NCBI GenBank assembly: GCA_023136205.1
Contig: JAGLRQ010000122.1
Coordinates: 1-10,299, forward strand
Direction: 5' to 3'
DNA: 10,299 nucleotides
Source of the DNA: Candidatus Auribacterota bacterium
Lineage (GTDB): Bacteria > Auribacterota > UBA6266
In this document: in pieces, positions 1-10,299 of the stretch
Position numbering within the stretch: position 1 is the first letter of the stretch
How the letters are laid out: each line of letters begins with the position of its first letter
The notes under the pieces: model-generated
The model's input: only the letters and a program-made list of their open reading frames with translations
Databases searched by the model: none
Told to the model about the DNA's origin: nothing
Made by a program: the position numbers and the translations under genes

Positions 1-2
1 GT

Positions 3-293
3 GATTCCAGGCGGCTGGTATCCCTGCTTCTGGGGAGCCGGCTTTATCTGTACCGGCCTACCGCATGCAGTATATACTCAAAGAAAATTGTAAAGGAATA
101 TTGTTCTAAGTATGGGTTTCAAATACTGGATCTTTTTAATGATATTCAGGTTGTTCCTTTGGCGCGTTTGATAGGTTTTTTGCGTATACCGGCGCTTGTC
201 CGGGGGCTTAAACTTTTTGGCTTGGAAAATAAAAGTCTTAAAATGATACTTTTGACAGGATATGCGGCGCGTGTTGTTCGTGAGGATGTATAA
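3..293 (+). CDS. 3' end of an upstream CDS (5'-truncated by the window edge), function unknown
   Basis: My own translation: frame 3 is open from the window edge to TAA at 291-293 (96 sense codons, ...KKIVKEYCSKYGFQILDLFNDIQVVPLARLIGFLRIPALVRGLKLFGLENKSLKMILLTGYAARVVREDV*). Third codon positions are T-rich like the downstream genes. The stop overlaps the next start codon (TAATG, 291-295). It is absent from the supplied track because no start codon lies in the window. No family recognised. Alternative not excluded: a frame-1 reading (VIPGGWYPCFWGAGFICTGLPHAVYTQRKL*) ending at TAA 88-90, followed by a ~200-nt leader. Confidence 0.4.
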   Translation, partial: DSRRLVSLLLGSRLYLYRPTACSIYSKKIVKEYCSKYGFQILDLFNDIQVVPLARLIGFLRIPALVRGLKLFGLENKSLKMILLTGYAARVVREDV

Positions 294-1336
294 TGGCATT
301 GAAAAAAAAATATTTTAGCTCGGGTTTAAAGACAATTAGTTCGATTGTCAGAAATAGAATTACTGGGTATAAAATTCCCCTATTGGCTTATATTCTGGTA
401 ACCAATCGTTGTAATCTCAATTGTGTTTATTGTTTTTCCAATGCCAATAAAACTAAAGACCTCGATATTCCTCTGGATAGGCTCTTTAGCATAATAGACC
501 AGCTGAAAGAGTGCGGCACGATATTGATTACGATAGGAGGCGGTGAACCGTGTTTACGCGGTGACATTGGTGAAATCTGTGATTATATTCTTAAAAAAGG
601 AATGATGGTTGAAGTAGTAACCAATGGCATCAACTTCGAAAAGAATTTAGATGCTATGAAGAAAATTGATTTTTTAGCAATAAGCATAGACGGTGATGAG
701 AATGCGCATGACAAAAACAGGGGCAAGGGTTCTTTCAAAGTTGCTGTAAAGGCTCTGGAACTGGCTAAAGAACATGGTATCCATACGCGGATCCATGCCT
801 GTTTTTCCAGAAATACTGCCAATTCACTACCGGGATTAATGAAGATCAGCAAAAAATACAACTTAAAGGTCAATATAGCTGTGCCATCTCTTCATACAGA
901 TGATCCTCTTCTGGCGTTTACCGATGATGAAATAAGAGAATACTACAGTCGGATGAAAGATTATAAAAAAAATGGCTATCCTGTTTCAAATTCTTATAGC
1001 ACATTGGATTTTATCAGTAAGTGGCCGGGAGATTTCGGTTATGTATCTGAAAAGCAAGATTCTTCTTTACCCTATTTGCCCTGTAAAAGAAAAGAATTTT
1101 GTATATATATTGATGCGGATGGCTATGCCTATCCCTGTGGAGCAGTTTGGAGCAAGTACAGGTTCAATGTTTTTGAAATAGGAGTTAAAAAAGCTTTTGA
1201 AGAATTTTGTAAGGTTACGTGTACAAATTGTATTGGAGAAGCAGAATTTAATCTTTTGTTTAACGGTAGCTTGAGCAGCCTGGCAAATGTCGCGGAATTT
1301 GGATTGTGGGACAGAATAAAGGATTTCATAAAATGA
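293..1336 (+). CDS. Radical SAM enzyme with SPASM/twitch-like C-terminal auxiliary Cys domain
   Basis: 347-aa ORF with GAGGA (282-286) 6 nt upstream of ATG 293. The radical SAM CX3CX2C motif is C40/C44/C47 (nt 410-433) in VTNRCNLNCVYCFSN. GGGEP motif at aa 82-86. SIDGDENAHDKNRGKGSF is typical of this enzyme class. The C-terminal Cys array is C264-x5-C270-x6-G-x4-C282, then C306-x3-C310-x2-C313 (nt 1082-1231). Confidence 0.9.
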   Translation: MALKKKYFSSGLKTISSIVRNRITGYKIPLLAYILVTNRCNLNCVYCFSNANKTKDLDIPLDRLFSIIDQLKECGTILITIGGGEPCLRGDIGEICDYILKKGMMVEVVTNGINFEKNLDAMKKIDFLAISIDGDENAHDKNRGKGSFKVAVKALELAKEHGIHTRIHACFSRNTANSLPGLMKISKKYNLKVNIAVPSLHTDDPLLAFTDDEIREYYSRMKDYKKNGYPVSNSYSTLDFISKWPGDFGYVSEKQDSSLPYLPCKRKEFCIYIDADGYAYPCGAVWSKYRFNVFEIGVKKAFEEFCKVTCTNCIGEAEFNLLFNGSLSSLANVAEFGLWDRIKDFIK

Positions 1337-1977
1337 ATCCCTGTAAATATATTTCTCCTTTGGAATTTTCGCGTGTTGTTTTTAAGTGCGTCAGAAAAGA
1401 TGGCCGTTGCGGATACCACAAAAAAGGCCAGGAATATAGATTTTCTAATCTGACGCCTGAGGGGTTGTGTCCTGAAGCTTATCATAATCTGTATTACGCG
1501 AGTCTTGGGATTCTGTTTAACGCGAAATTTGAAGAAAAACAGTTAACTGTAAAATGTCCAGCTGAAAATAACTGGGTAGTGTTTAGAGCAGGTTTTGAAA
1601 AATTAAATCTTCGCTTTCAAATTCTTAATGTGGTGAAGCGTGTATTGCGCTGGTTATTTCCCGGGCAGATTTATCAGGGCCGTTTGTTCTGGGAAGTTAT
1701 CAAAATTAACGGGGAATGCCCCAGGGGGCATTTGATGGGCTTGCGGTTTTATATAAATATGGGTAATTTCCAGATAACCAGAAATTTATTATTCCCATTA
1801 GGCCAGGCCCGTGGGCTTTGTCCCGCGATTTTTGATAATTTTTTTCCGTATCTCTATACGTGGCGAATGAGCAAAACTGTTCCCTGTTCAAAGGGTTCTC
1901 CTTCTGTCTTAATACAGTGCCCTGATCACAAAGCTAATATTACTTTCGAAATAAAAGAAGAGGAAAATGAAGCCTGA
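1333..1977 (+). CDS. Di-domain Cys-motif protein (two TIGR04076-like domains), paralog 1
   Basis: I prefer ATG 1333 (ATGA overlap with the upstream stop, AAGGA about 10 nt upstream) over the track's GTG at 1306. This gives 214 aa. There are two copies of a module: beta-strand-like start, then Cys-x(2-4)-h-x-x-G-x-x-[FWY], then GLCP-x-[AI][YF], then x-CP near the end. Domain 1 Cys are C26/C46/C75 and domain 2 Cys are C129/C163/C196. Domain 2 (ECPRGHLMGLRF...RGLCPAIFDNFFPYL...IQCPDHKANITFEI) best fits my recollection of the ~90-aa TIGR04076 family. Confidence 0.7.
   Translation: MNPCKYISPLEFSRVVFKCVRKDGRCGYHKKGQEYRFSNLTPEGLCPEAYHNLYYASLGILFNAKFEEKQLTVKCPAENNWVVFRAGFEKLNLRFQILNVVKRVLRWLFPGQIYQGRLFWEVIKINGECPRGHLMGLRFYINMGNFQITRNLLFPLGQARGLCPAIFDNFFPYLYTWRMSKTVPCSKGSPSVLIQCPDHKANITFEIKEEENEA
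1372..1602 (+). other. Cys-motif domain copy 1 (protein-level repeat)
   Basis: RVVFKCVRKDGRCGYHKKGQEYRF...PEGLCPEAYHNLYYASL...LTVKCPAENNWVVFRAGFEK. GLCP codons verified at nt 1462-1473. Confidence 0.55.
1681..1956 (+). other. Cys-motif domain copy 2 (protein-level repeat)
   Basis: RLFWEVIKINGECPRGHLMGLRFYI...ARGLCPAIFDNFFPYLY...VLIQCPDHKANITFEIKE. GLCP codons verified at nt 1813-1824. Confidence 0.6.
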
Positions 1978-2497
1978 TTGTTATATGTTTAAAAATATTC
2001 AAATAGAAGTAAAGTCCGTTGAAGGCAGTTGTAGCGCGGGATTTTGTCTGGGGAAGTGTTTTTCTCCTGAATCAATAATTCCGAAAGGGTTATGTCCTTT
2101 TTTGTATCACGCGGCACTTCCTTATCTGGAAGCTATAGAAAATGGAGCGTTTTTTAAGCCGTCCGGGAAAAATTTTATTAAGGTACAGTGTCCGAATACT
2201 TCGGTGGGCGTATTAGTTGAGATTTTTCAGGCTGAGAAAAAAGGAACTCAAATACGTGTTAGTGTGCCACATACCAAGGATTCAAAATGTCCATGTTATG
2301 ATTTCAAAGCCGGTGATAACTGGATAGTAACGGGAAATCAAAAAAGCTTTTGCCGCCGGGCTTATGATTCTCTTTTTCCATATTTAAACGCTTTATCATC
2401 TCAGACGAAAACTGCTGCCGAAAATGTTTTGACTGTAACATGCCCTTCATATCCTGATTTTGTGACTTTTAAGGTGATAAAATTATGGGAACCTTAA
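1967..2497 (+). CDS. Di-domain Cys-motif protein (two TIGR04076-like domains), paralog 2
   Basis: 176-aa ORF. ATG 1967 is preceded by AGAGGA (1959-1964) and overlaps the upstream gene by 11 nt. The N-terminus MKPDCY mirrors MNPCKY of the preceding gene, which supports this start. It carries two copies of the same module. Domain 3 Cys are C27/C31, C43 and C75. Domain 4 Cys are C108/C110, C129 and C159. Confidence 0.7.
   Translation: MKPDCYMFKNIQIEVKSVEGSCSAGFCLGKCFSPESIIPKGLCPFLYHAALPYLEAIENGAFFKPSGKNFIKVQCPNTSVGVLVEIFQAEKKGTQIRVSVPHTKDSKCPCYDFKAGDNWIVTGNQKSFCRRAYDSLFPYLNALSSQTKTAAENVLTVTCPSYPDFVTFKVIKLWEP
1994..2230 (+). other. Cys-motif domain copy 3 (protein-level repeat)
   Basis: NIQIEVKSVEGSCSAGFCLGKCF...PKGLCPFLYHAALPYLEAI...FIKVQCPNTSVGVLVEIFQ. 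GLCP codons verified at nt 2087-2098. Confidence 0.55.
2249..2482 (+). other. Cys-motif domain copy 4 (protein-level repeat)
   Basis: QIRVSVPHTKDSKCPCYDFKAGDNWIV...QKSFCRRAYDSLFPYLNAL...VLTVTCPSYPDFVTFKVIK. Central Cys codon at nt 2351-2353. GLCP is degenerated to SFCR. Confidence 0.55.
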
Positions 2498-3921
2498 GCT
2501 ATGGAAAAACGGTGAAAAGAATAACTTTGATCAGGCCGGGAGCATATCCCGAGGGTTTAATAGTTCCGTTGGGTTTGCTATATCTTGCGGGATATTTAAT
2601 TTCCAAAGTGCAGGACATTGATATTTCCATTCTTGATGCTGCTTTGGAAGATCTGGGGCCGGAAGAAATTGCTGAGAAAACAAAAATTCTTAAGCCGGAT
2701 TTAATTGGCCTGACTGGTTTAATAGCCCATACCGGTGATATAAAAAAAACTGCTAAGTGTATTCGCAAATTACTTCCGGAAACTGTTATTGTGGGCGGCG
2801 GCCCTGCCATGTCCTCTAACCATTTAGAACTATTAAAGGAACGGGCTATTGACTTTGGAGTAATAGGGGAAGGTGAAGAAACGTTTTTTTCTCTTCTCAA
2901 GGCACTTCGTGAGGATGGCAGCCTGTCCTTGATTGATGGCCTTGTTTATCGAGGGGAGGAGGACAGGATTATTCTCAATAATAAGCGCGGGATGATTGAA
3001 GACATAGACACGCTTCCGCGTCCTGCCTATCATTTAATTAAGGTTGAGGATTATTTTAACAGTTCTAAAAGAAATTCACAGTCACCTGTGTATATTTCCA
3101 AGCGCAATTTACCTATAATGACCTCCAGGGGGTGTCCGTTCAAATGTATTTACTGTCATAATCTTTTTGGGAAGAAGTTTCGTCCACGGAGTCCTGAGAA
3201 TGTGGTAGACGAAATCATTTGGCTCAAGCGTACATACAATATGGCCGAGCTTGAGATTATTGATGATATATTTAATTTTGATAAAGAACGTGCCAAGGAA
3301 ATTATGAGGAAAATTATCGATGAGGGGCTCAATTTAAAGATATCTTTTCCCAATGGGATTAAATATGAAACGATAGATGACGAATTACTGGAGTTGTTTA
3401 AAAAGGCCGGGGTTTATCGATTGGCATTTGGAATAGAAAGCGGCAATGAAAGAGTTCAAAAAGTGTTAAGAAAGGTTGTGGACCTTTACCGAATGCGTGA
3501 GATTATTGATCAGGTGGTTAAAATGGGTTTTTTTGTCAGCGGGTTTTTTCAGTTAGGGCTTCCCGGAGAAACTAAAGAGGAAATGTTGGATACAATTAAA
3601 TACGCGGCTTCTACAAAGCTTCATACAGCGACATTCCATTTGACCATTCCCTTTCCGGGAACACAGATGCATACTGAGTATGTTAAAGGGAAATTTGAAG
3701 CATCTCATTTCGAAAGCTGCAGAGATATTAGTGTTAATGTGAGCGCGGTAAGCGATCACGTTTTATTAAAACTTAAAAGATATGCCTTGTATAAATTTTA
3801 TTTTGACATCAAAAGGATGATCAGTATTTATAAGGTTTTTCCAGTTAAAAAAAGGATATTTTCAAACTTTATAAATGTGTTATCTGAAATATGTTTTCGA
3901 AAATGGTTAATTAATACATGA
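2485..3921 (+). CDS. B12-binding domain radical SAM enzyme (class B type)
   Basis: 478-aa ORF. ATG 2485 has AAGGTGA (2471-2477) upstream and overlaps the previous gene by 13 nt. The N-terminal ~130 aa look like the cobalamin-binding Rossmann domain of class B rSAMs (ITLIRPG...PLGLLYLAGYL...KPDLIGLTG...VIVGGGPAMS...DFGVIGEGEETF). The radical SAM motif is TSRGCPFKCIYCHN, with C217/C221/C224 at nt 3133-3156. RLAFGIESGNERV also fits the radical SAM core. Confidence 0.9.
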   Translation: MGTLSYGKTVKRITLIRPGAYPEGLIVPLGLLYLAGYLISKVQDIDISILDAALEDLGPEEIAEKTKILKPDLIGLTGLIAHTGDIKKTAKCIRKLLPETVIVGGGPAMSSNHLELLKERAIDFGVIGEGEETFFSLLKALREDGSLSLIDGLVYRGEEDRIILNNKRGMIEDIDTLPRPAYHLIKVEDYFNSSKRNSQSPVYISKRNLPIMTSRGCPFKCIYCHNLFGKKFRPRSPENVVDEIIWLKRTYNMAELEIIDDIFNFDKERAKEIMRKIIDEGLNLKISFPNGIKYETIDDELLELFKKAGVYRLAFGIESGNERVQKVLRKVVDLYRMREIIDQVVKMGFFVSGFFQLGLPGETKEEMLDTIKYAASTKLHTATFHLTIPFPGTQMHTEYVKGKFEASHFESCRDISVNVSAVSDHVLLKLKRYALYKFYFDIKRMISIYKVFPVKKRIFSNFINVLSEICFRKWLINT

Positions 3922-3928
3922 TAATTCT

Positions 3929-4732
3929 ATGAAGACAATTTTAAAAGGTAAAAATGTTTTGGTTACCGGAGCCGCGCACGGGATAGGGCGCGCGCTTACT
4001 AATTTTCTGGTAAAAGAAGGGTGCCGCCTTTGCCTGGTTGATATTGACAGGCCCGGGTTGATGAAAGTGTCGGATTTGGCGAAAGAAAAAGGGCTTGAAC
4101 CGATTTTGATGATTAAAGATCTGGCCCAGCCGAATGATAGGCAATCACTTATATCTTCATTGGATGAAAAGGGTTTTTATGTTGATATTCTTATTAATAA
4201 TGTTGGTGTAGGGTTCTGGCGCTATTTCCAGGATACGCCCTGGGAGAAACTTGACCAGATTATAGAGACAAACATTAAATGTATGACCCATCTAACGAAA
4301 CTGGTGTTACCCGGCATGCTGGTCAGGAATGAAGGGTATATTGTCAACCTGTCATCAACAGCGTCATTTATTGGGGCGCCTAACGCGGCTTGTTATTCGG
4401 CAACAAAAGCGTATATAAGTATTTTTAGTGAAACCCTTAATATGGAACTGAAAAAAACCAGGGTCAAAGTGATATGCGTATTTCCGGGAGCAACTGATAC
4501 CCCTTTCTGGAAATACGCTATGATGGATAACAGCAAATATAGCAGAGATATTCGCAGAATGACTGCCGAAGAAGTTGCTGAAGAAACTGTCGCGGCAATA
4601 AGAGCAGGCAAAGCTATTATAATTCCGGGGGCCAGAAACAGGTTGAATATGGTGATTGTGAAATTTTTGCCGCGTAAACTGTTAAAAAAAATTGCCTTGA
4701 ATCGTTTCAACGGCATAAACATAAAAAAATAA
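3929..4732 (+). CDS. Short-chain dehydrogenase/reductase (classical SDR) family oxidoreductase
   Basis: 267-aa ORF, 7 nt after the previous stop. TGxxxGIG cofactor motif (VLVTGAAHGIG, nt 3965-3988). NNVG (NNAG-type) motif. Catalytic Ser in NLSSTAS. YSATK with Y156/K160 (nt 4394-4408). PGATDTPF (PG motif). Confidence 0.9.
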   Translation: MKTILKGKNVLVTGAAHGIGRALTNFLVKEGCRLCLVDIDRPGLMKVSDLAKEKGLEPILMIKDLAQPNDRQSLISSLDEKGFYVDILINNVGVGFWRYFQDTPWEKLDQIIETNIKCMTHLTKLVLPGMLVRNEGYIVNLSSTASFIGAPNAACYSATKAYISIFSETLNMELKKTRVKVICVFPGATDTPFWKYAMMDNSKYSRDIRRMTAEEVAEETVAAIRAGKAIIIPGARNRLNMVIVKFLPRKLLKKIALNRFNGINIKK

Positions 4733-4747
4733 AGGCTTAAAATAAAG

Positions 4748-5188
4748 ATGAAGATTAGTCAACACATAATAAGTTCTTTACCTCTCGCGGGTGTATATTA
4801 TCTTATTACTAAAAATTTGCCGGCTGCTTTTTTGGTAGTTATTTCTACAATTGCTGTTGATATCGATCATGTCCTGGATTATGTTATTACACAGAAACGA
4901 ATAGATTCAATAAAAAATATGACAAAGGCTTTTGAAACATTTGACATTGTACACAAAAACTATCTTTTACTGCATTCCTGGGAGGCACTTGTTCTATTTG
5001 CTGTCTGTTTGTTCTTTTTCCCCAATCCGTATCTAATCGCGATTTTTACGGGGTATATGGTCCATCTTTTATGTGACCAGGTATTTAATTCCCATTTCTT
5101 AGGTAAATATAATACCAAATCGTTGTTCTACTTTTTTCTCTATCGGCTTCATATGAATTTTGATGTGTTGCCGATGAGAAAGGGGTAA
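4748..5188 (+). CDS. Small polytopic membrane protein, tentatively DUF457/YdjM-like membrane-bound metal-dependent hydrolase
   Basis: 146-aa ORF, 15 nt after the SDR stop. It has about four hydrophobic helices. His/Asp-containing motifs sit where the YdjM family has them: SQHIISS near the N-terminus, AVDIDHVLDY, LLLHSWEAL and GYMVHLLCDQ. The assignment is from memory of the family pattern only. Confidence 0.5.
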   Translation: MKISQHIISSLPLAGVYYLITKNLPAAFLVVISTIAVDIDHVLDYVITQKRIDSIKNMTKAFETFDIVHKNYLLLHSWEALVLFAVCLFFFPNPYLIAIFTGYMVHLLCDQVFNSHFLGKYNTKSLFYFFLYRLHMNFDVLPMRKG

Positions 5189-5194
5189 AAACAT

Positions 5195-8100
5195 ATGAAT
5201 AAAAACCTCAAGCAAAATGTAAAAAAATATTCCGGTGTTATAGAGATTGTTGCCGGGATAACCGCGGTGGTTGTCTTTATTCATGTTCTGAGAATTTTTC
5301 TTCTAAAAGGTGAAACGACTCTGATGCATGATAATTTCTACTGGGGATATCCTGTCTTCCAATTTTTTACGGAGAATATACTTAATGGCCATTTTCCCCT
5401 ATGGAATCCGTTTACACATGCTGGAGAACCGTTCTATCCGGTACTGTTTACGGCCCGATTACTGGATCCCAATATATTGCTGAGTATATTTTTAGGAAAA
5501 TTTTTTACTAACGATATTATCCTGTTATATAATTGGACATTTTTTTTGCAAAACTTGATAATGGTGTTTGGAATCTACCTTCTGTTTCGCCCGTTAGCTG
5601 GAAATCTATTTATACGTTTGTCTTTAATCCCTATTTTGCTTTATTCATCATTGATACTTGTTTCTTTTCGTCAAGGGCTGCCTTTGAGAACCTTTATATG
5701 GGTTCCTTTTATAACGTATTTTCTGCTTCGTATAATCTATTATAAAGATTACCGGTGGCATAACTGGCTTTTTCTGTCCGGTTTAATCGGCCTTAATTGG
5801 CAGTTCTATTATTTTTCTAACCTCTGGACATTCCTTTTATTGTTTTTCCTTGGCTTTGTGTTTTTTCGAAGGGATCTCTTAAAAGATTTGTTCAGAAGCA
5901 AAAATGTTGTTTTCAAATTCATAGCGGCAGGGGTGATTATATTCGCCATGATGATGCCAAACATTATTCTTATGCTGGAGAAAGACAATTATGTATATCC
6001 GGCAAGAATGATATATTCCGGCTATGAAGAAAAATTTCCTCAGGGAGGGCCGCAGCAATTTGAAGGCGATTCCCTGCCGGAAGTTTCTGGTATTGTAGTG
6101 CCTTATGGTTTGATGACTTATACAGGTTCTTTTTCGACCATCTGGAATTTCATTCAGATTATTTCCCCGGAAGCAAATAAAATGGTTACGGGGGACGAGA
6201 ACAGTTCTTGGGGGAAACCATCGGAAGCTTATATGTATTTAGGCCTTTTACCCTGGGCTATTGCTTTATTTGGTATGGCAGCCGGCAGGCACGGCCTTAA
6301 GAGATTATGGCTGTTTCTTCTTTTTGCGCTTGGATTGTTGATGTTGGGGCCGTCAGGAGGATTACATCGAATTCTCTATTACATTTTTCCTCCTCTCTGG
6401 TTTAACAGGCATACACAAAGTTTTACGCTATTCTTCTTGCTCCCTTTTTTATTTTTTTATGTTTTAGGATTTAACCGCATTTTTTCCACGTGGGATGGAG
6501 TTCTCTTTTCTTCTAATAATAAAACCGGCCCCATAAAACATCTGATACATAGGAAATCTGGCAATAGTACCGCATCCGGCCTCATAGCGTTGCTTCTGTT
6601 TTTTTGCAGCATAGTTGGTTTTGTATATTGGATGACGAATCTTGAATATCCGCAGACAAATTATTTATTCCTTTTAATTCTTTCTGTTTTTGCCATGGGC
6701 TGGTTACTGCGCAATGATTTGGGAGAAAAGGGAATATATACCGCTTTGATTGCAGGTTCTGTCGGCCTAGTTCTTATTCTGGGGCTTGAGCCGTTGGGAT
6801 TTATAACAAAAGTAATCCTATTTCTGTTGTTCCCTGTTATTTTGTTTTTACTTGTTAAAACAAATAAAAGATTATTTAAAAATTTTCCTATAGCGGCTGT
6901 TTTGCTTATTGCTTTTGCTCTTGTCCTGATTGAAGATTTAATCGCGCATCTTGATTTAACCGCTTATTTGTACCGGACACAAAGACACCCGAAGAAAGCC
7001 TTTAATTTTGAAACGTCTATTCGCGGCCCTGTGCTGCCTCGGAATAGAAAAATTGTTCCTGTTGCCGATTATGTTTTCGGCAATCAGTTTATGAGATATC
7101 TTTCTCTTATATATCATCAATCGTATGTCTTCTCGCCCGTTATGGAAGACCCGGAAATTTTATTTGAATCTCAGAAAAATATTACATTTGACGTGTTTAA
7201 GAATCATTCTTTCGAAGAATGGATTGAATTACCCGAAGGGCAGCTTTTGCCGGAGGGCTGCATATATTATCAGGAAGGAATAAGCGGTTTCGCGAAAAGA
7301 TATGATTTGGAAGGCGGTGTCGCAAAAGGCAAATATTCTGTTTTCCTGTCCCCATCGTCTAAAGGTAATTCCATGTTAAGATTTAGAACCGGAAACATTG
7401 AAGCTTTAAGGGGGCGGTTTATCAAGTTTTCGGTTTTAGTTAAAAGCCAGAATGAATCTTCTAATTGTATTCAGCTTGATATTCAGGATGGTGTAAGTCC
7501 TGTGACGGTTAGTTCTTATTCAAATAGCGGTGAATGGGAACGTATTTCAGTGACAAAGCGTATTGATGAGAACGCGAAGGAGATACTTCTTAATTTTAAT
7601 GTATTCCATAAATCTACTGCCGGAGCATTGTTTGATGAAGTAAAGATAGAAATTGGCAAAGGTATTGATTTTCCCGGAAAGTTTGAAAAGGCTTTATATA
7701 GCAAACGATGGAGTACTTTTTTACTGCTAAAAAGTTATTTTAATTTGATTAATTCGAGAATTCCTGCTCCTGTTTTAGAAAAAATGTTTGCGGTGGAGGA
7801 ACCTGTATTTCAGTTTAAACAGGGGGTTGTGGAAACGCGGAAAGGAGAGCTGATCCCTTTTTTAGAGAAACTGGATTCTGATGAAGCTGTTCAGTTGTTA
7901 GGAAAATATGTTTTAGCTGAGAAAAAATCTGATCTATCAATGGAACGTTTAAAAATATCTTTGGCAGATTACAAAAGATCAAAGGCGGGGAGTTATGAAT
8001 ACCGGAAGAGTAACAAGTTTTCATATTCCATTAAAAAATATGAGTACAGTTCTTTTGACATGGAGGTTTGTTCTGATAAAGCGGGGGTCCTTTACTGGTC

Positions 8101-8368
8101 TGACGGATATGACACAAGATGGAATGCCTATATTAATGGGAAGAAAGTTCCTGTTTATCGTGTTAACGTGAATTTTAAAGCTATTTACCTTCCGGCTGGT
8201 ACTAACCTGGTTAGTTTTGTTTATGAACATTCGCTGTTCACGTCAGCGCTGTTTGTGTTTTACAGTTTTTTTGCGGTATCTATTGCCGCGGGCCTGGCCG
8301 CGCTTGCGTACTGCTGTTTTGTGAAACGTGGGAAAAAATCGGGGCCGCTACTGACAATACAGTTGTAA
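5195..8368 (+). CDS. YfhO-like (GT-C-type) polytopic membrane glycosyltransferase-family protein with large extracytoplasmic C-terminal region
   Basis: 1057-aa ORF with GAAAGGGG upstream of ATG 5195. After TM1 comes HDNFYWGYPVFQFFTENILNGHFPLWNPFTHAGEPFY, which is the YfhO-type first-loop pattern (acidic residue, then L-x-G-x-x-P-L-W, then G-x-P). There are many TM helices up to about aa 585. The C-terminal signature YWSDGYDTRWNAYINGKKVPVYRVNVNFKAIYLPAGTNLVSFVYEHSLF is followed by a final TM helix (nt 8093-8239 onward), as in YfhO-family proteins. Confidence 0.75.
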   Translation: MNKNLKQNVKKYSGVIEIVAGITAVVVFIHVLRIFLLKGETTLMHDNFYWGYPVFQFFTENILNGHFPLWNPFTHAGEPFYPVLFTARLLDPNILLSIFLGKFFTNDIILLYNWTFFLQNLIMVFGIYLLFRPLAGNLFIRLSLIPILLYSSLILVSFRQGLPLRTFIWVPFITYFLLRIIYYKDYRWHNWLFLSGLIGLNWQFYYFSNLWTFLLLFFLGFVFFRRDLLKDLFRSKNVVFKFIAAGVIIFAMMMPNIILMLEKDNYVYPARMIYSGYEEKFPQGGPQQFEGDSLPEVSGIVVPYGLMTYTGSFSTIWNFIQIISPEANKMVTGDENSSWGKPSEAYMYLGLLPWAIALFGMAAGRHGLKRLWLFLLFALGLLMLGPSGGLHRILYYIFPPLWFNRHTQSFTLFFLLPFLFFYVLGFNRIFSTWDGVLFSSNNKTGPIKHLIHRKSGNSTASGLIALLLFFCSIVGFVYWMTNLEYPQTNYLFLLILSVFAMGWLLRNDLGEKGIYTALIAGSVGLVLILGLEPLGFITKVILFLLFPVILFLLVKTNKRLFKNFPIAAVLLIAFALVLIEDLIAHLDLTAYLYRTQRHPKKAFNFETSIRGPVLPRNRKIVPVADYVFGNQFMRYLSLIYHQSYVFSPVMEDPEILFESQKNITFDVFKNHSFEEWIELPEGQLLPEGCIYYQEGISGFAKRYDLEGGVAKGKYSVFLSPSSKGNSMLRFRTGNIEALRGRFIKFSVLVKSQNESSNCIQLDIQDGVSPVTVSSYSNSGEWERISVTKRIDENAKEILLNFNVFHKSTAGALFDEVKIEIGKGIDFPGKFEKALYSKRWSTFLLLKSYFNLINSRIPAPVLEKMFAVEEPVFQFKQGVVETRKGELIPFLEKLDSDEAVQLLGKYVLAEKKSDLSMERLKISLADYKRSKAGSYEYRKSNKFSYSIKKYEYSSFDMEVCSDKAGVLYWSDGYDTRWNAYINGKKVPVYRVNVNFKAIYLPAGTNLVSFVYEHSLFTSALFVFYSFFAVSIAAGLAALAYCCFVKRGKKSGPLLTIQL
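7178..7657 (+). other. CBM4/9-like (galactose-binding-like jelly-roll) segment inside the YfhO-like protein
   Basis: aa 662-821: NHSFEEW...KGKYSVFLSP...RGRFIKFSVLVKSQNESSNCIQLDIQDG...SNSGEWERISVTKRIDENAKEILLNFNVFHKSTAGALFDEVKIEIG. The order is: aromatic/acidic start, 'G-x-Y-x-hydrophobic' strand, 'hydrophobic-x-F-S-V-x-V-K' strand, then W-x-x-I-S-V. The terminal F-D-E-V-x-I matches the usual CBM_4_9 layout. Recognised by eye only. Confidence 0.4.
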
Positions 8369-8464: not shown

Positions 8465-9730
8465 ATGAATTTTAAAAAGGATGTTCTTTTCGCGAAGAAA
8501 AACAGAAAAACTGAAGCAATATTTATAAGCCTGATTTCTATGTTGTTTTTCTTATTCGTATATAAAATATTAACAGCCCAATCAATGCTTTCACATGATT
8601 CAATCCGCTGGTATGGCGTTTATCACCTCTTTGCGGATTCACTGTTAAACGGTATTTTTCCCTATTGGGATCCGTTTGATTCCTGCGGCCAGCCCTTTTA
8701 TTATAATTTGGGTATTTTGAGGTTGTATGAACCGATAACCGTTGGGTTTATTATGTTGCAAAAAGTGTTTAATTCTTCAATATTAAGTATTTATCATTGG
8801 GAATACATAATAAGAATTTGGTTGGTGGCCTTGGGTGTGTATCTGTGCTACAGGCAGACAAATAAATATCTTCTCAGCAGTTGTATGGTTTTTGCCGTGT
8901 TTTTATTTTCGTCTTTTGCCGTTACCTCTTTCAGACAGAATGGTGTTTTGTACGTATTTTTCTGGACGCCTCTGGCCATGTACTTTTTTTTGAAGCTCCT
9001 GAAGGATTTCAGTCTTTATAATGTAATAGGTTTTTCTTTTTTTATAGGCCTGTCATTGATTAATTATCAGGGGGTATATATACTAACCTACCTTTTTATT
9101 TTTATACTTACTTTATTGATTAATAAAAGAGGTTATTTAATCTCGGTATTTAAAAACGCTAAAAATTTGGTTCGTATCTTCGCCGGGATAATCGTGGTGG
9201 TTATTCTGGCCCTGCCATTACTGGGCATTTACATTGAAAAAGATAAGATAATTCCCAGTGTGAGATTGAGAGACAAAGCTGAGATCTCCGGGGGAATAAA
9301 CCTGGCCTATGATTCTATAGAAAAAGCGGGTACGCATTCCAATATAGCTGATTTTCTGGAACTTATATTTCCTCCGGTGGCACGCGGTTATTTCTGGCAT
9401 TGGTTTCCTGTATCCGGGGCTGCTTTGTCAGAGTGTTTTTTATATATCGGTATATTCCCGCTTGTATTAGGTATCCTGGGCGCTGTGAAATCCAGGCAGG
9501 AGTATCGCAAAAACTTTCTAATTACCCTTGTTCTTGTCGGGCTTTTGATGTTGGGCCCGAAATATGGTATTCACAGGCTGATATACTTTTTATTTTATCC
9601 TTTGCGGGTTACGCGGCACATGCATCTTTTCGCGGGGTTTTTTATATTTACACTGCTTTATTTTGTCGGGCAGGGTATAGATTTTGTTATAGATAACACT
9701 TTAGCGAAATTTACAAAGGATGGAAGATGA
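8465..9730 (+). CDS. YfhO-like membrane protein paralog, N-terminal (transmembrane) part
   Basis: 421-aa ORF, colinear with aa ~40-430 of the 5195-8368 product. SHDSIRWYGVYHLFADSLLNGIFPYWDPFDSCGQPFY matches MHDNFYWGYPVFQFFTENILNGHFPLWNPFTHAGEPFY. SSFAVTSFRQ matches SSLILVSFRQ. GLLMLGPKYGIHRLIYFLFYPLRVTRH matches GLLMLGPSGGLHRILYYIFPPLWFNRH. It ends at TGA 9728-9730, before any extracytoplasmic domain. Confidence 0.75.
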   Translation: MNFKKDVLFAKKNRKTEAIFISLISMLFFLFVYKILTAQSMLSHDSIRWYGVYHLFADSLLNGIFPYWDPFDSCGQPFYYNLGILRLYEPITVGFIMLQKVFNSSILSIYHWEYIIRIWLVALGVYLCYRQTNKYLLSSCMVFAVFLFSSFAVTSFRQNGVLYVFFWTPLAMYFFLKLLKDFSLYNVIGFSFFIGLSLINYQGVYILTYLFIFILTLLINKRGYLISVFKNAKNLVRIFAGIIVVVILALPLLGIYIEKDKIIPSVRLRDKAEISGGINLAYDSIEKAGTHSNIADFLELIFPPVARGYFWHWFPVSGAALSECFLYIGIFPLVLGILGAVKSRQEYRKNFLITLVLVGLLMLGPKYGIHRLIYFLFYPLRVTRHMHLFAGFFIFTLLYFVGQGIDFVIDNTLAKFTKDGR

Positions 9731-10299
9731 AAGAGGCCTTTTTAAGCCTTATTTATATTATAGTGCTCTATATGTATTTATTAGTAAGTCTGCTTGCCGC
9801 AATCTATTGGATAAAAAAGAAAAAAAAACTACTGGGGCCTTTTTTGTTAATTGTTGTTGCGATTGCGATAGACCTTTTTTTATTTAATAGGTTTATCTTA
9901 AATGAAGTAGTTTTACCACGTAAAGGTATTGGGTTTGAGAAATATCCAACCCCGTATAGTTTTTCGAAAAATAGAGTTCCAAATTTAATTTCGGACAATG
10001 GTTTCCATAATTTTCGTCCTGCCCTTTACAAAAAAGCTGTCGCTGTCGGCAGTTATACAATTGATGAAGCTGTAATAGATAACCACAGTGTGCCAAAAGC
10101 GTATGTGGTATTGCAGGACCATTTTTCTAAATATCCTTTATATGATGAATTAAATAAATTGAATATAAAACAGTTTATTAAATATGGCATGTCAAATATT
10201 GACAGTTGGGTGATAGAGGAAAGATTGTTTTTTTCAATAATATTAAATGCCGTATTAGATGGGTTTTTATCTCATCAGAGTTTTTATGAAAAATATATA
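9727..10299 (+). CDS. Continuation of the second YfhO-like paralog as a separate ORF (3'-truncated by the window edge)
   Basis: My own translation; not in the supplied track. ATG 9727 overlaps TGA 9728-9730 (ATGA). The frame stays open for 191 codons to the window end: MKEAFLSLIYIIVLYMYLLVSLLAAIYWIKKKKKLLGPFLLIVVAIAIDLFLFNRFILNEVVLPRKGIGFEKYPTPYSFSKNRVPNLISDNGFHNFRPALYKKA... It has two TM helices separated by KKKKK, then a soluble region. That region loosely aligns with KKAFNFETSIRGPVLPRNRKIVPVADYVFGNQF, which follows the last TM helix of the 1057-aa paralog. Confidence 0.6.
   Translation, partial: MKEAFLSLIYIIVLYMYLLVSLLAAIYWIKKKKKLLGPFLLIVVAIAIDLFLFNRFILNEVVLPRKGIGFEKYPTPYSFSKNRVPNLISDNGFHNFRPALYKKAVAVGSYTIDEAVIDNHSVPKAYVVLQDHFSKYPLYDELNKLNIKQFIKYGMSNIDSWVIEERLFFSIILNAVLDGFLSHQSFYEKYI

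What the first reader, a model, noticed from the sequence alone, without database searches (positions are those of the whole stretch)
1333..2497. Four diverged copies of one three-Cys domain, arranged as two tandem di-domain genes
Seen in sequence: every copy keeps the same three-position Cys signature despite low overall identity. Position 1 is C26, C129, C27/C31 and C108/C110, just before a G-[QDL]-x-[FWY] strand. Position 2 is GLCP at C46, C163 and C43, degenerated to SFCR at C129 of the second gene. Position 3 is x-CP at C75, C196, C75 and C159, followed by a hydrophobic strand ending the domain. An aromatic [FL]-P-Y-L follows the central Cys in three copies. Both proteins also begin M-x-P-(C/D)-(K/C)-Y, with an extra Cys at residue 4 or 5. 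In the first gene the two domains are joined by an amphipathic-looking linker (LNLRFQILNVVKRVLRWLFPGQIY). This indicates domain duplication followed by gene duplication, or the reverse order. From memory, stand-alone proteins of this type (TIGR04076-like) are about 90 aa and single-domain. A 2x2 arrangement would therefore be unusual, but I cannot verify that here. Three invariant Cys per domain fit a metal or Fe-S site, possibly completed by a fourth ligand. They would fit defined crosslink acceptor sites equally well.
Basis: partly seen in the sequence, partly recalled or inferred. Interest (0 to 1): 0.75.

Follow-up and report, generated by a model that had tools for sequence, protein, structure and literature searches.

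The report
Split four-domain cysteine module beside radical-SAM enzyme
Two overlapping genes encode four diverged copies of a small three-cysteine domain (TIGR04076 family) that together form a widespread but unstudied four-domain unit, always found beside one particular radical-SAM enzyme and a dehydrogenase in surface-sugar tailoring gene clusters of bacteria and archaea.

Summary
Gene A (1333-1977, 214 aa) and gene B (1967-2497, 176 aa) each contain two TIGR04076 domains. All four segments match the HMM on their own and match each other by profile comparison. Across 30 domain sequences the three Cys are the only invariant columns. One correction: the first Cys of B domain 1 is C22, not C27/C31, and in B domain 2 it is C108, not C110.

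The claim that a 2x2 arrangement is unusual fails. Of the 150 best-scoring representatives, 73 are di-domain length and 72 are fused proteins of four-domain length, in both A-B and B-A order. Others are fused to an SDR or to a DUF362-ferredoxin.

A and B are therefore the split form of one four-domain unit. Its genes overlap those of a twitch-type radical-SAM enzyme (293-1336) and a B12-radical-SAM enzyme, and an SDR follows. The same radical-SAM family lies nearby in 20 of 30 independent loci, including a DPANN archaeon.

Single-domain relatives carry a fourth Cys (a CC doublet) that all four domains here have lost.

The function is not shown. My best guess is a Cys3-ligated Fe-S or other metal accessory subunit. 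The models find no Foldseek neighbour among solved structures, and whether the Cys converge in 3D could not be measured.

The parts
1..291 (+). 3' end of a SAM-dependent methyltransferase gene, cut by the window edge
   Evidence: The frame-3 translation matches the C-terminus of the 309-aa methyltransferase of L001 almost residue for residue.
293..1336 (+). Radical-SAM enzyme of 347 aa with a twitch-like C-terminal domain. It is the conserved partner of the module.
   Evidence: Pfam Radical_SAM E 4.7e-25. Invariant CxxxCxxC (C40/C44/C47) plus four invariant C-terminal Cys (C264, C282, C310, C313). It is below cutoff for every NCBIfam model; the best is the PTO1314 family at 90 bits against a cutoff of 306. 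Orthologues lie next to the module in 20 of 30 loci. Its stop overlaps the start of gene A (ATGA).
1333..1977 (+). Gene A, a di-domain TIGR04076 protein of 214 aa
   Evidence: TIGR04076 55.8 bits with 2 stretches. 17 homologues at 44-96% identity. AF2 model pLDDT 78.9, pTM 0.73.
1369..1605 (+). Domain A-D1 (residues 13-91), with Cys26, Cys46 and Cys75
   Evidence: HMM E 3.4e-6 alone. C26, C46 and C75 conserved in 74-76 of 76, H29 in 65/76.
1606..1674 (+). Conserved amphipathic linker helix (residues 92-114)
   Evidence: N92, R94, N99, K102, G111 and Q112 are invariant or nearly so in the subfamily. Predicted helix 93-104 with pLDDT 86-91.
1675..1962 (+). Domain A-D2 (residues 115-210), with Cys129, Cys163 and Cys196, the CPDH motif, and a roughly 13-residue insertion
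   Evidence: HMM E 9.3e-8 alone. C129 71/76, C163 75/76, C196 75/76, D198 72/76. The insertion is visible in alignment A4.
1967..2497 (+). Gene B, a di-domain TIGR04076 protein of 176 aa. It overlaps the end of gene A by 11 nt.
   Evidence: TIGR04076 67.9 bits with 2 stretches. 100% identical to a protein NCBI annotates as 'TIGR04076 family protein', Ca. Aureabacteria MAG. AF2 model pLDDT 76.2, pTM 0.77.
1991..2236 (+). Domain B-D1 (residues 9-90), with Cys22, Cys43 and Cys75
   Evidence: HMM E 7.9e-8 alone. C22 49/51, C43 49/51, C75 51/51.
2240..2485 (+). Domain B-D2 (residues 92-173), with Cys108, Cys129 and Cys159
   Evidence: HMM E 6e-10 alone. C108 51/51, C129 49/51, C159 45/51.
2485..3921 (+). 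B12-binding radical-SAM enzyme of 478 aa. Its start overlaps the end of gene B by 13 nt.
   Evidence: Pfam B12-binding and Radical_SAM. Best NCBIfam hits are a P-methyltransferase family, BchE and HpnJ, all far below cutoff. This gene is absent in some related loci such as L010, L024 and L026.
3929..4732 (+). Classical short-chain dehydrogenase/reductase (SDR) of 267 aa
   Evidence: Pfam adh_short E 5e-42. An orthologous SDR is adjacent in most loci, and it is fused to the module in P0079, P0093, P0126, L025 and L027.
4748..5188 (+). Small YdjM-like membrane protein
   Evidence: Pfam YdjM E 5e-5, below the gathering score.
5195..8368 (+). YfhO-like membrane glycosyltransferase of 1057 aa
   Evidence: Pfam YfhO 34.2 bits against a cutoff of 28.5.
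8465..9730 (+). Membrane protein of 421 aa resembling the N-terminal half of the neighbouring YfhO-like protein (5195-8368)
   Evidence: No family hit. N-terminal motifs shared with the 1057-aa protein are visible in the translations.
9727..10299 (+). 5' part of a gene for a protein resembling the C-terminal half of YfhO, running off the window
   Evidence: Matches the N-terminus of the 493-aa YfhO-Pfam protein of L001.

Best explanation
SHOWN.
- A and B are paralogous di-domain TIGR04076 proteins. Together they are the split form of a conserved four-domain unit.
- Elsewhere the same four domain types occur in one chain of about 330-400 aa, in either A-B or B-A order.
- Elsewhere the module is also fused to an SDR or to a DUF362 + 2x[4Fe-4S] ferredoxin protein.
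- Each domain keeps exactly three Cys. On the AF2 secondary structure, one sits just after strand 1, one at the N-cap of the single long helix, and one as Cys-Pro at the end of strand 3.
- Each domain has lost the fourth Cys (the CC doublet) that single-domain family members carry.
- The unit is gene-linked, with overlapping start and stop codons, to one specific family of twitch-type radical-SAM enzyme and to an SDR.
- This sits inside a cassette that also holds B12-radical-SAM enzymes, a SAM methyltransferase, a sugar 4-aminotransferase, a small GT2 resembling polyprenyl-phosphate sugar synthases, and GT-C type transferases (YfhO or PMT_2).

INFERRED.
- A and B form a 1:1 heterodimer with four metal centres, one Cys3+X site per domain.
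- The metal centres are most likely Fe-S clusters. The fourth ligand would be the N-terminal Cys in the two D1 domains, and His, Asp or an exogenous ligand elsewhere.
- This module docks to the radical-SAM enzyme and the dehydrogenase as an accessory redox or cluster-bearing subunit. It would either relay electrons to the radical-SAM clusters or hold the two enzymes on a common sugar intermediate during a radical oxidation/reduction step.
- The product would be a tailored amino-sugar on a polyprenyl-phosphate carrier that the GT-C enzymes transfer to the cell surface.
For: Domain identity and homology.

Four-domain unit:
- 72 of the 150 best-scoring representatives are 266-420 aa with 3-5 matched stretches. 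About equal numbers are A-type (35) and B-type or other (38) di-domain proteins.
- P0036 is in A-B order and P0037 in B-A order.

Fusions:
- SDR at the N- or C-terminus in P0079, P0093 and P0126.
- DUF362 + Fer4 in P0042.
- B-SDR fusions in L025 and L027.
- DUF362-ferredoxin takes the SDR's place in L016, and DUF362 is fused to the module in P0042/L015. A DUF362-like ORF, identified by eye only, lies upstream in L031.

Linkage:
- The radical-SAM family scores above 130 bits within about 3 kb in 20 of 30 non-redundant multi-domain loci.
- It shows 33-58% full-length identity across those loci.
- The loci include a Ca. Diapherotrites archaeon.
- Gene overlaps of 4, 11 and 13 nt.

Metal-site argument:
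- 12 near-invariant Cys, mostly as Cys-Pro.
- Eight single-domain relatives show the pattern C...C...CC. Among 425 multi-domain instances Cys is not one of the eight commonest residues at the position before Cys3, which is mostly Q, S, T, K or R.
- The N-terminal Cys is conserved wherever it can be aligned.

All known hosts are MAGs, and the clusters are rich in radical-SAM and B12 enzymes.

Cassette logic: the aminotransferase resembles PseC/ArnB, and the GT2 aligns full-length, weakly, to ArnC, AglJ and PpgS.
Against: - No metal, cluster or protein interaction was measured.
- A DCA attempt was confounded by the four paralogous domain types. One strong coupling (Cys1+2 with the C-terminal half of the helix) could even place Cys1 away from Cys2.
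- There is no universal fourth ligand. The position five residues after Cys2 is H 178, D 80, Y 61, N 50.
- An SDR transfers hydride, not single electrons, and no flavin domain is present. A simple NAD(P)H-to-cluster-to-radical-SAM relay is therefore chemically awkward.
- The domains have no Pfam Fer4 or other Pfam match.
- Neither model has a Foldseek neighbour among solved structures.
- Model confidence is moderate (pLDDT 76-79).
Confidence: 0.4

Rival explanations
1. Structural zinc adaptor. Each domain binds Zn through Cys3 plus His, Asp or water purely for folding. The four-domain unit is a non-redox scaffold that tethers the radical-SAM enzyme and the SDR (or DUF362 protein), or binds the lipid-linked sugar substrate and presents it to them.
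For: - Fusion to an SDR at either end and to B alone fits a docking or substrate-binding module.
- Type-specific His and Asp lie near the Cys: H29, H48, H51, D134, D198.
- The conserved amphipathic linker helix could contact a membrane or a lipid carrier.
- Single-domain members with four Cys are compatible with Zn(Cys)4.
Against: - The Cys are single and widely spaced (20-33 residues apart), not arranged in CxxC knuckles.
- Systematic loss of the fourth Cys in all four domain types is odd for a purely structural site.
- The alternative fusion partner carries ferredoxin clusters.
- Distribution so far is limited to radical-SAM-rich clusters in uncultured organisms.
Confidence: 0.25
2. Catalytic open-site cluster. 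Each Cys3 site holds a [4Fe-4S] cluster with one free iron, as in aconitase, IspH or NadA, and this iron binds a substrate hydroxyl. The module would itself be a dehydratase or reductive-deoxygenation enzyme working between the radical-SAM step and the SDR step.
For: - There are exactly three conserved Cys per domain, after loss of the fourth Cys present in single-domain relatives.
- It is paired with a ketoreductase-type enzyme.
- The four domain types each have their own conserved residues, which suggests specialised pockets.
Against: - Four separate catalytic sites in about 390 aa are unlikely.
- No conserved acid/base constellation is shared by the four domains.
- The domains are very small for an active site that binds a nucleotide- or lipid-linked sugar.
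Confidence: 0.12
3. Dedicated Fe-S assembly or delivery scaffold. By the logic of IscU, NifU or A-type carriers (three Cys, labile cluster), the module would load the many clusters of the four to five radical-SAM enzymes in the cassette.
For: - Three-Cys sites without a fixed fourth ligand.
- Up to five radical-SAM genes per locus.
- A published annotation guess of 'iron cluster metabolism' for a family member (PMC8667426).
Against: - No sequence match to NifU/IscU or any other Pfam family.
- Fusion to an SDR makes no sense for a cluster carrier.
- The linkage is to one particular radical-SAM family, not to radical-SAM enzymes in general.
Confidence: 0.08
4. Protein substrate. A and B would be modified by the flanking radical-SAM enzymes, through thioether or other crosslinks at the Cys or through C-methylation, as in RiPP or protein-maturation systems.
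For: - The upstream radical-SAM enzyme resembles SPASM/twitch peptide maturases at the level of weak HMM hits (StsB, AlbA, PapB, MftC, all far below cutoff).
- Invariant Cys could serve as acceptor sites.
Against: - The whole fold of about 85 aa is conserved, not a leader plus core. Both AF2 models are compact.
- The module is fused to SDR and DUF362 enzymes.
- The surrounding genes are for sugar and glycan biosynthesis, with no protease or exporter.
Confidence: 0.05

Closest known systems
TIGR04076 family (NCBIfam/TIGRFAMs; 'uncharacterized repeat protein, TIGR04076 family'), function unknown
   Same: Both proteins exceed the model's curated cutoff, and all four segments align to nearly the whole 91-position model. 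They share the beta-beta-alpha-beta-beta element order and the Cys1, Cys2 and Cys3-Pro positions.
   Different: - The single-domain members retrieved here (83-90 aa) have four Cys, with a CC doublet at Cys3. All four domains here have three.
- This subfamily is a fixed set of four specialised domain types, split 2+2 or fused.
- It is linked to a radical-SAM enzyme plus an SDR. The single-domain loci examined show no such neighbours.
Small partner proteins of SPASM/twitch radical-SAM enzymes (PqqD/RRE with PqqE, MftB with MftC)
   Same: A small protein or proteins encoded directly beside the radical-SAM gene, translationally coupled to it, and sometimes fused to pathway enzymes.
   Different: PqqD/RRE domains are Cys-poor winged-helix peptide binders in peptide pathways. 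Here the domains are Cys-rich, there are four of them, no peptide precursor is present, and the pathway is a glycan pathway. No sequence similarity was detected.
Ferredoxins and polyferredoxins as electron donors to radical-SAM enzymes
   Same: The proposed role is the same: several Cys-ligated clusters in small tandem domains next to enzymes that need low-potential electrons. One relative is fused to a 2x[4Fe-4S] ferredoxin domain.
   Different: There is no CxxCxxCxxxCP motif and no Fer4 Pfam match. The Cys are 20-33 residues apart, and there are only three per domain.
Three-Cys cluster proteins (IscU/NifU scaffolds; IspH, NadA and aconitase open-site [4Fe-4S] enzymes)
   Same: Three widely spaced single Cys with no fixed fourth protein ligand.
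   Different: No detectable sequence or fold relationship. In IspH and NadA each repeat gives one Cys to a single cluster, whereas here each repeat carries all three.
Radical-SAM plus NAD(P)H-reductase sugar-tailoring pairs (AprD4/AprD3 C3'-deoxygenation; BtrN twitch dehydrogenase). These enzyme facts are from my own knowledge.
   Same: A radical-SAM enzyme with one auxiliary cluster is paired with a reductase in an amino-sugar pathway. The B12-radical-SAM enzymes here give weak AprD4-family hits.
   Different: Those systems need no third Cys-rich protein. The radical-SAM enzyme here reaches no curated family cutoff.
Polyprenyl-phosphate-sugar surface modification systems (ArnB/ArnC/ArnT; CsbB/GtcA/YfhO)
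   Same: The context genes are a DegT-type aminotransferase, a small GT2 aligning over its length to ArnC, AglJ and PpgS, and GT-C enzymes (YfhO, or PMT_2 in the archaeon).
   Different: Extra radical tailoring genes are present: two to five radical-SAM enzymes, a methyltransferase, an SDR and the TIGR04076 module. All similarities are below the curated cutoffs.

Membership tests
TIGR04076 family | Whole-protein score at or above the curated cutoff (33 bits) of the NCBIfam model | tested here: met
   A scores 55.8 bits and B 67.9 bits. Single segments score 27.5, 32.5, 32.8 and 39.5 bits.
TIGR04076 family | Near full-length alignment of each domain to the 91-position model | tested here: met
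   Profile positions 7-85, 7-89, 2-86 and 3-88 of 91.
TIGR04076 family, single-domain form | One domain of about 85-90 aa with four Cys (C...C...CC) | tested here: not met
   There are two domains per protein and three Cys per domain. The residue before Cys3 is K, Q, Q and T here, and mostly Q, S, T, K or R in 425 multi-domain instances. It is Cys in 8 of 9 single-domain ORFs.
Four-domain TIGR04076 unit (defined in this work) | Presence of all four domain types A-D1, A-D2 (CPDH motif, linker helix), B-D1 and B-D2, either adjacent or fused | tested here: met
Four-domain TIGR04076 unit (defined in this work) | Adjacent radical-SAM enzyme of about 350 aa with C40/C44/C47 and four C-terminal Cys | tested here: met
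   Window gene 293-1336. The same family is found in 20 of 30 loci.
4Fe-4S ferredoxin (Fer4 families) | CxxCxxCxxxCP motif or a Pfam Fer4 match | tested here: not met
   No Pfam hit for A or B at E up to 0.1. The Cys spacing is 20-33 residues.
Fe-S or metal-binding protein (generic) | Bound Fe-S cluster or metal, with the three Cys converging on one site | not testable with these tools
   Model coordinates were not returned. DCA was uninformative. This needs ICP-MS, UV-vis, EPR or a structure.
IscU/NifU scaffold | Sequence match to NifU_N/IscU | tested here: not met
   No Pfam or NCBIfam hit other than TIGR04076.
RiPP or protein substrate of a radical-SAM maturase | Leader/core organisation, hypervariable core, and dedicated protease or exporter | tested here: not met
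   Conservation is uniform across folded domains. The module is fused to enzymes. No protease or exporter is conserved across the loci; only L005/L006 carry an O-antigen-type ABC transporter (ABC2_membrane + Wzt_C) about 8 kb upstream. No post-translational modification was assayed.
Known protein fold (PDB) | Significant structural neighbour among solved structures | tested here: not met

The most novel reading that the evidence does not exclude
The four-domain TIGR04076 unit would be a previously unrecognised class of metalloprotein. It would carry four Cys3 open-site Fe-S (or other metal) centres on a fold with no Foldseek neighbour among solved structures. It would serve as the obligate third component of an uncharacterised twitch-radical-SAM/dehydrogenase system, conserved from bacteria to DPANN archaea, that performs a new radical tailoring reaction on polyprenyl-linked surface sugars.
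Probability: 0.3. Interest if true: 0.65.

Novelty: new member of a known kind. Interest (0 to 1): 0.48.

Why it matters
TIGR04076 is a catalogued family with no known function. The only two papers in the searchable library that mention it do so in passing.

This work gives the family its first concrete handles:
- A specialised four-domain subfamily whose domains have lost the fourth Cys.
- An obligatory split or fused architecture.
- Fixed partners: one radical-SAM family, plus an SDR or a DUF362-ferredoxin.
- A defined pathway context, namely tailoring of a lipid-linked amino-sugar.

If the module is an Fe-S accessory subunit, it would add a new partner type to radical-SAM enzymology. It would also point to an undescribed sugar modification in uncultured bacteria and archaea. 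If it is only a zinc scaffold, the finding is a useful annotation and little more.

Tried and rejected
- **Third word-indexed homologue search.** Run with the domain alignment, it returned only the same subfamily and did not reach canonical members.
- **Mean-field DCA** on 228 domain sequences, to test Cys proximity. I rejected it as evidence. The Cys-Cys couplings rest on 7 sequences that lack a Cys, and the four paralogous domain types create subfamily correlations.
- **The position five residues after Cys2 (H/D/H/D here) as a universal fourth ligand.** Rejected. It is only 57% His or Asp across the wider family.
- **A hopanoid-like pathway (HpnH/HpnG/HpnJ logic).** The hits are far below cutoff. 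The PNP_UDP_1 plus phosphoribosyltransferase genes in some loci are more simply explained as 5'-deoxyadenosine/adenine salvage. That is an inference and was not tested.
- **Plasmid collection search** with protein B found no match.
- **First metagenome scan** with the four-type alignment failed for lack of a conserved stretch. It was repeated with an A-D2 alignment.
- **Order of the duplications** could not be resolved from hhalign scores.

Full report
**1. What is in the sequence**

All genes in the window lie on the + strand.
- Gene A is 1333-1977 (214 aa). Homologues start at the same MNPC... residue, so the ATG at 1333 is the start, not the upstream GTG listed mechanically.
- Gene B is 1967-2497 (176 aa).
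- The stop of the upstream radical-SAM gene (293-1336) overlaps the start of A by 4 nt (ATGA).
- A overlaps B by 11 nt.
- B overlaps the downstream B12-radical-SAM gene (2485-3921) by 13 nt.

**2. The four copies are real and are TIGR04076 domains**

- The NCBIfam TIGR04076 model has 91 positions and a cutoff of 33 bits. It scores A at 55.8 bits and B at 67.9 bits, each with two stretches.
- Each of the four segments scanned alone matches nearly the full model, with E values of 3.4e-6, 9.3e-8, 7.9e-8 and 6e-10.
- No Pfam family matches.
- I built one alignment per domain type from 17 homologues of A and 14 of B. Profile-profile comparison relates all six pairs at 86-97.5% probability, E 5e-6 to 8e-12, with the Cys in register.
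- In a joint alignment of 30 domains the only invariant columns are the three Cys, and Pro after Cys3 is at least 90% conserved.
- Over 470 domain instances in the wider family the three Cys are present in 401/406, 451/456 and 428/432 non-gap cases.

The conserved first Cys is C22 in B domain 1, not C27/C31, and C108 in B domain 2, not C110.

**3. The 2x2 layout is the split form of a common four-domain unit**

An exhaustive HMMER search of 1.84 billion representatives with the domain profile found 824 proteins at E of 1e-3 or better. The 150 best break down as follows:

| Class | Count |
|---|---|
| Di-domain length, A-type | 35 |
| Di-domain length, B-type or other | 38 |
| 266-420 aa with 3-5 matched stretches | 72 |
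| Longer fusions | 4 |
| Single-domain | 1 |

That list ranks by total score, so it favours multi-domain proteins.

- P0036 (403 aa) is A-B in one chain. P0037 (369 aa) is B-A.
- P0079 and P0093 carry an N-terminal SDR. P0126 carries a C-terminal SDR. P0042 carries DUF362 plus a 2x[4Fe-4S] ferredoxin domain.
- In L025 and L027, B alone is fused to the SDR.
- JGI already names members 'uncharacterized repeat protein (TIGR04076 family)'.
- NCBI annotates the identical B protein as 'TIGR04076 family protein' from a Ca. Aureabacteria MAG.

Multi-domain forms are therefore not unusual. What is new is that four specialised domain types form one unit. Each type has its own conserved residues:
- A-D1: Y28, H29, Y54.
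- A-D2: A165, F167, P172, D198.
- B-D1: P52, Y53, F63, Q74.
- B-D2: A132, P138.

**4. Fixed partners**

I examined 30 non-redundant multi-domain loci. I scored them with HMMs built from the window's radical-SAM enzyme and SDR.
- 20 loci have a member of the same radical-SAM family within about 3 kb, at more than 130 bits. It is usually immediately upstream.
- Five more have a weaker radical-SAM-like ORF directly upstream.
- Most of the remaining loci are on contigs too short to judge.
- The radical-SAM orthologues share 33-58% identity over their full length.
- They keep C40/C44/C47 and four C-terminal Cys, consistent with one auxiliary cluster in a twitch-like domain.
- They reach no curated family cutoff.
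- 17 loci have the orthologous SDR, adjacent or fused.
- L015 (fused, Pfam-confirmed) and L016 (adjacent, Pfam-confirmed) have a DUF362 or DUF362-ferredoxin protein instead of the SDR. L031 has an upstream ORF that looks DUF362-like by eye only.
- DUF362 belongs to the same Pfam clan as the LarA N-terminal domain (PMC11770544).

The wider cassette contains the following:
- A PseC/ArnB-like sugar 4-aminotransferase.
- A GT2 of about 240 aa that aligns along its length to ArnC, AglJ and PpgS.
- One to four B12-radical-SAM enzymes.
- A SAM methyltransferase.
- GT-C transferases: YfhO in the window, PMT_2 in the archaeon.

The cassette occurs in Ca. Aureabacteria, Thermodesulfobacteriota, Myxococcota and a Ca. 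Diapherotrites archaeon.

**5. The fourth cysteine**

The metagenome scan also returned eight single-domain proteins of 83-90 aa. An example is MPKVSIEITDILEEGTCPAGHKIGETF...LCPAAFNSIYPY...ACCPDYKRPVVFKISR.
- These have four Cys: Cys1, Cys2 and a CC doublet at Cys3.
- In 425 multi-domain instances the residue before Cys3 is Q, S, T, K, R, A or H. Cys is not among the eight commonest residues.
- The single-domain loci with usable flanks (L037 and L043) show no radical-SAM or SDR neighbour. L037 sits among archaeal translation genes, judged from the ORF sequences.

The canonical domain therefore has a complete four-Cys set, which argues that the Cys act together at one site. The four-domain subfamily has opened that site in every domain. 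In the two D1 domains an N-terminal Cys (A C4, B C5) is conserved wherever it can be aligned, 21/23 and 31/31, and could replace the lost ligand. D198 (72/76) is a candidate in A-D2.

**6. Structure**

- The AF2 models are moderately confident: A has pLDDT 78.9 and pTM 0.73, B has pLDDT 76.2 and pTM 0.77.
- Each domain reads: long strand, loop with Cys1, short strand, Cys2 at the N-cap of a 15-residue helix, strand ending in Cys3-Pro, long strand.
- The last strand of domain 1 runs almost directly into the first strand of domain 2.
- The A linker is a confident helix.
- Foldseek finds no PDB neighbour.
Convergence of the Cys is inference.

**7. Mechanism**

Shown:
- A split four-domain Cys-rich unit.
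- Gene linkage and gene fusion to one radical-SAM family and to a dehydrogenase.

Inferred, at about 0.4 overall:
- A and B form a heterodimer carrying four Cys3+X metal centres, most likely Fe-S clusters.
- The heterodimer acts as an accessory redox or cluster-bearing subunit of a radical-SAM/dehydrogenase step in tailoring a polyprenyl-linked amino-sugar.

The main weakness is that an SDR cannot feed single electrons and no flavin domain is present. A docking or scaffold role, possibly zinc-based, is therefore a serious rival (0.25). The other rivals are a catalytic open-site cluster (0.12), a cluster-delivery scaffold (0.08) and a protein substrate (0.05).

**8. Verdict**

- The family assignment is confirmed.
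- The claim that the arrangement is unusual is refuted.
- The metal-site idea is strengthened indirectly but remains untested.
- The genes are members of a catalogued family of unknown function.
- What is new is the definition of the four-domain Cys3 subfamily and of its conserved partners.

Noticed in passing
window 8465-9730 and 9727-10299: A 421-aa membrane protein resembling the N-terminal half of the neighbouring YfhO-like protein is followed, with an ATGA overlap, by a gene whose L001 counterpart (493 aa) carries the YfhO Pfam domain. This looks like a YfhO split into two genes, next to an intact 1057-aa YfhO-like paralogue at 5195-8368.
   Followed up: partly
window 7383-7388, compared with L001 11800-11847: The window is about 98% identical in DNA to an ENA metagenome scaffold (L001). 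The exception is a 42-nt indel inside the YfhO-like gene, giving 1057 aa here against 1071 aa there.
   Followed up: no
L005 13518-15984; L010 11346-13791: In several related loci the SDR is followed by a PNP_UDP_1 nucleosidase, a phosphoribosyltransferase and a NicX/M29-like protein. These might salvage 5'-deoxyadenosine and adenine produced by the many radical-SAM enzymes. The window's own locus lacks them.
   Followed up: no
L019 3276-9180 (Ca. Diapherotrites archaeon): The archaeal version of the cassette has three PMT_2-type GT-C genes, two of them each preceded by a Thioredoxin_4 protein and the first by an unannotated 234-aa protein, just upstream of the GT2 and the fused four-domain protein.
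   Followed up: no
P0112, P0133, P0158 and P0176 (third domain of each): A subgroup of fused four-domain proteins has lost only Cys1 in its third domain (A, P or F instead). P0176 regains a CC doublet at Cys3 in that same domain.
   Followed up: no
L016 2683-3873; L015 18-1982; L031 1166-2260: A DUF362 (+2x[4Fe-4S]) protein sits in the SDR's position beside the four-domain module in L016 and is fused to it in L015 (both Pfam-confirmed). In L031 a similar upstream ORF was identified by eye only. DUF362 shares a Pfam clan with the LarA N-terminal domain. This suggests the module can work with two unrelated dehydrogenase-type partners.
   Followed up: partly
window 4748-5188: A small YdjM-like membrane protein (Pfam hit below the gathering score) lies between the SDR and the YfhO-like gene. 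It is conserved in L001 and L003 but absent from other loci.
   Followed up: no
L037 2007-3725: A single-domain, four-Cys TIGR04076 gene lies next to genes for archaeal ribosomal protein S10 and elongation factor 1-alpha. This housekeeping context is unlike that of the four-domain subfamily.
   Followed up: no
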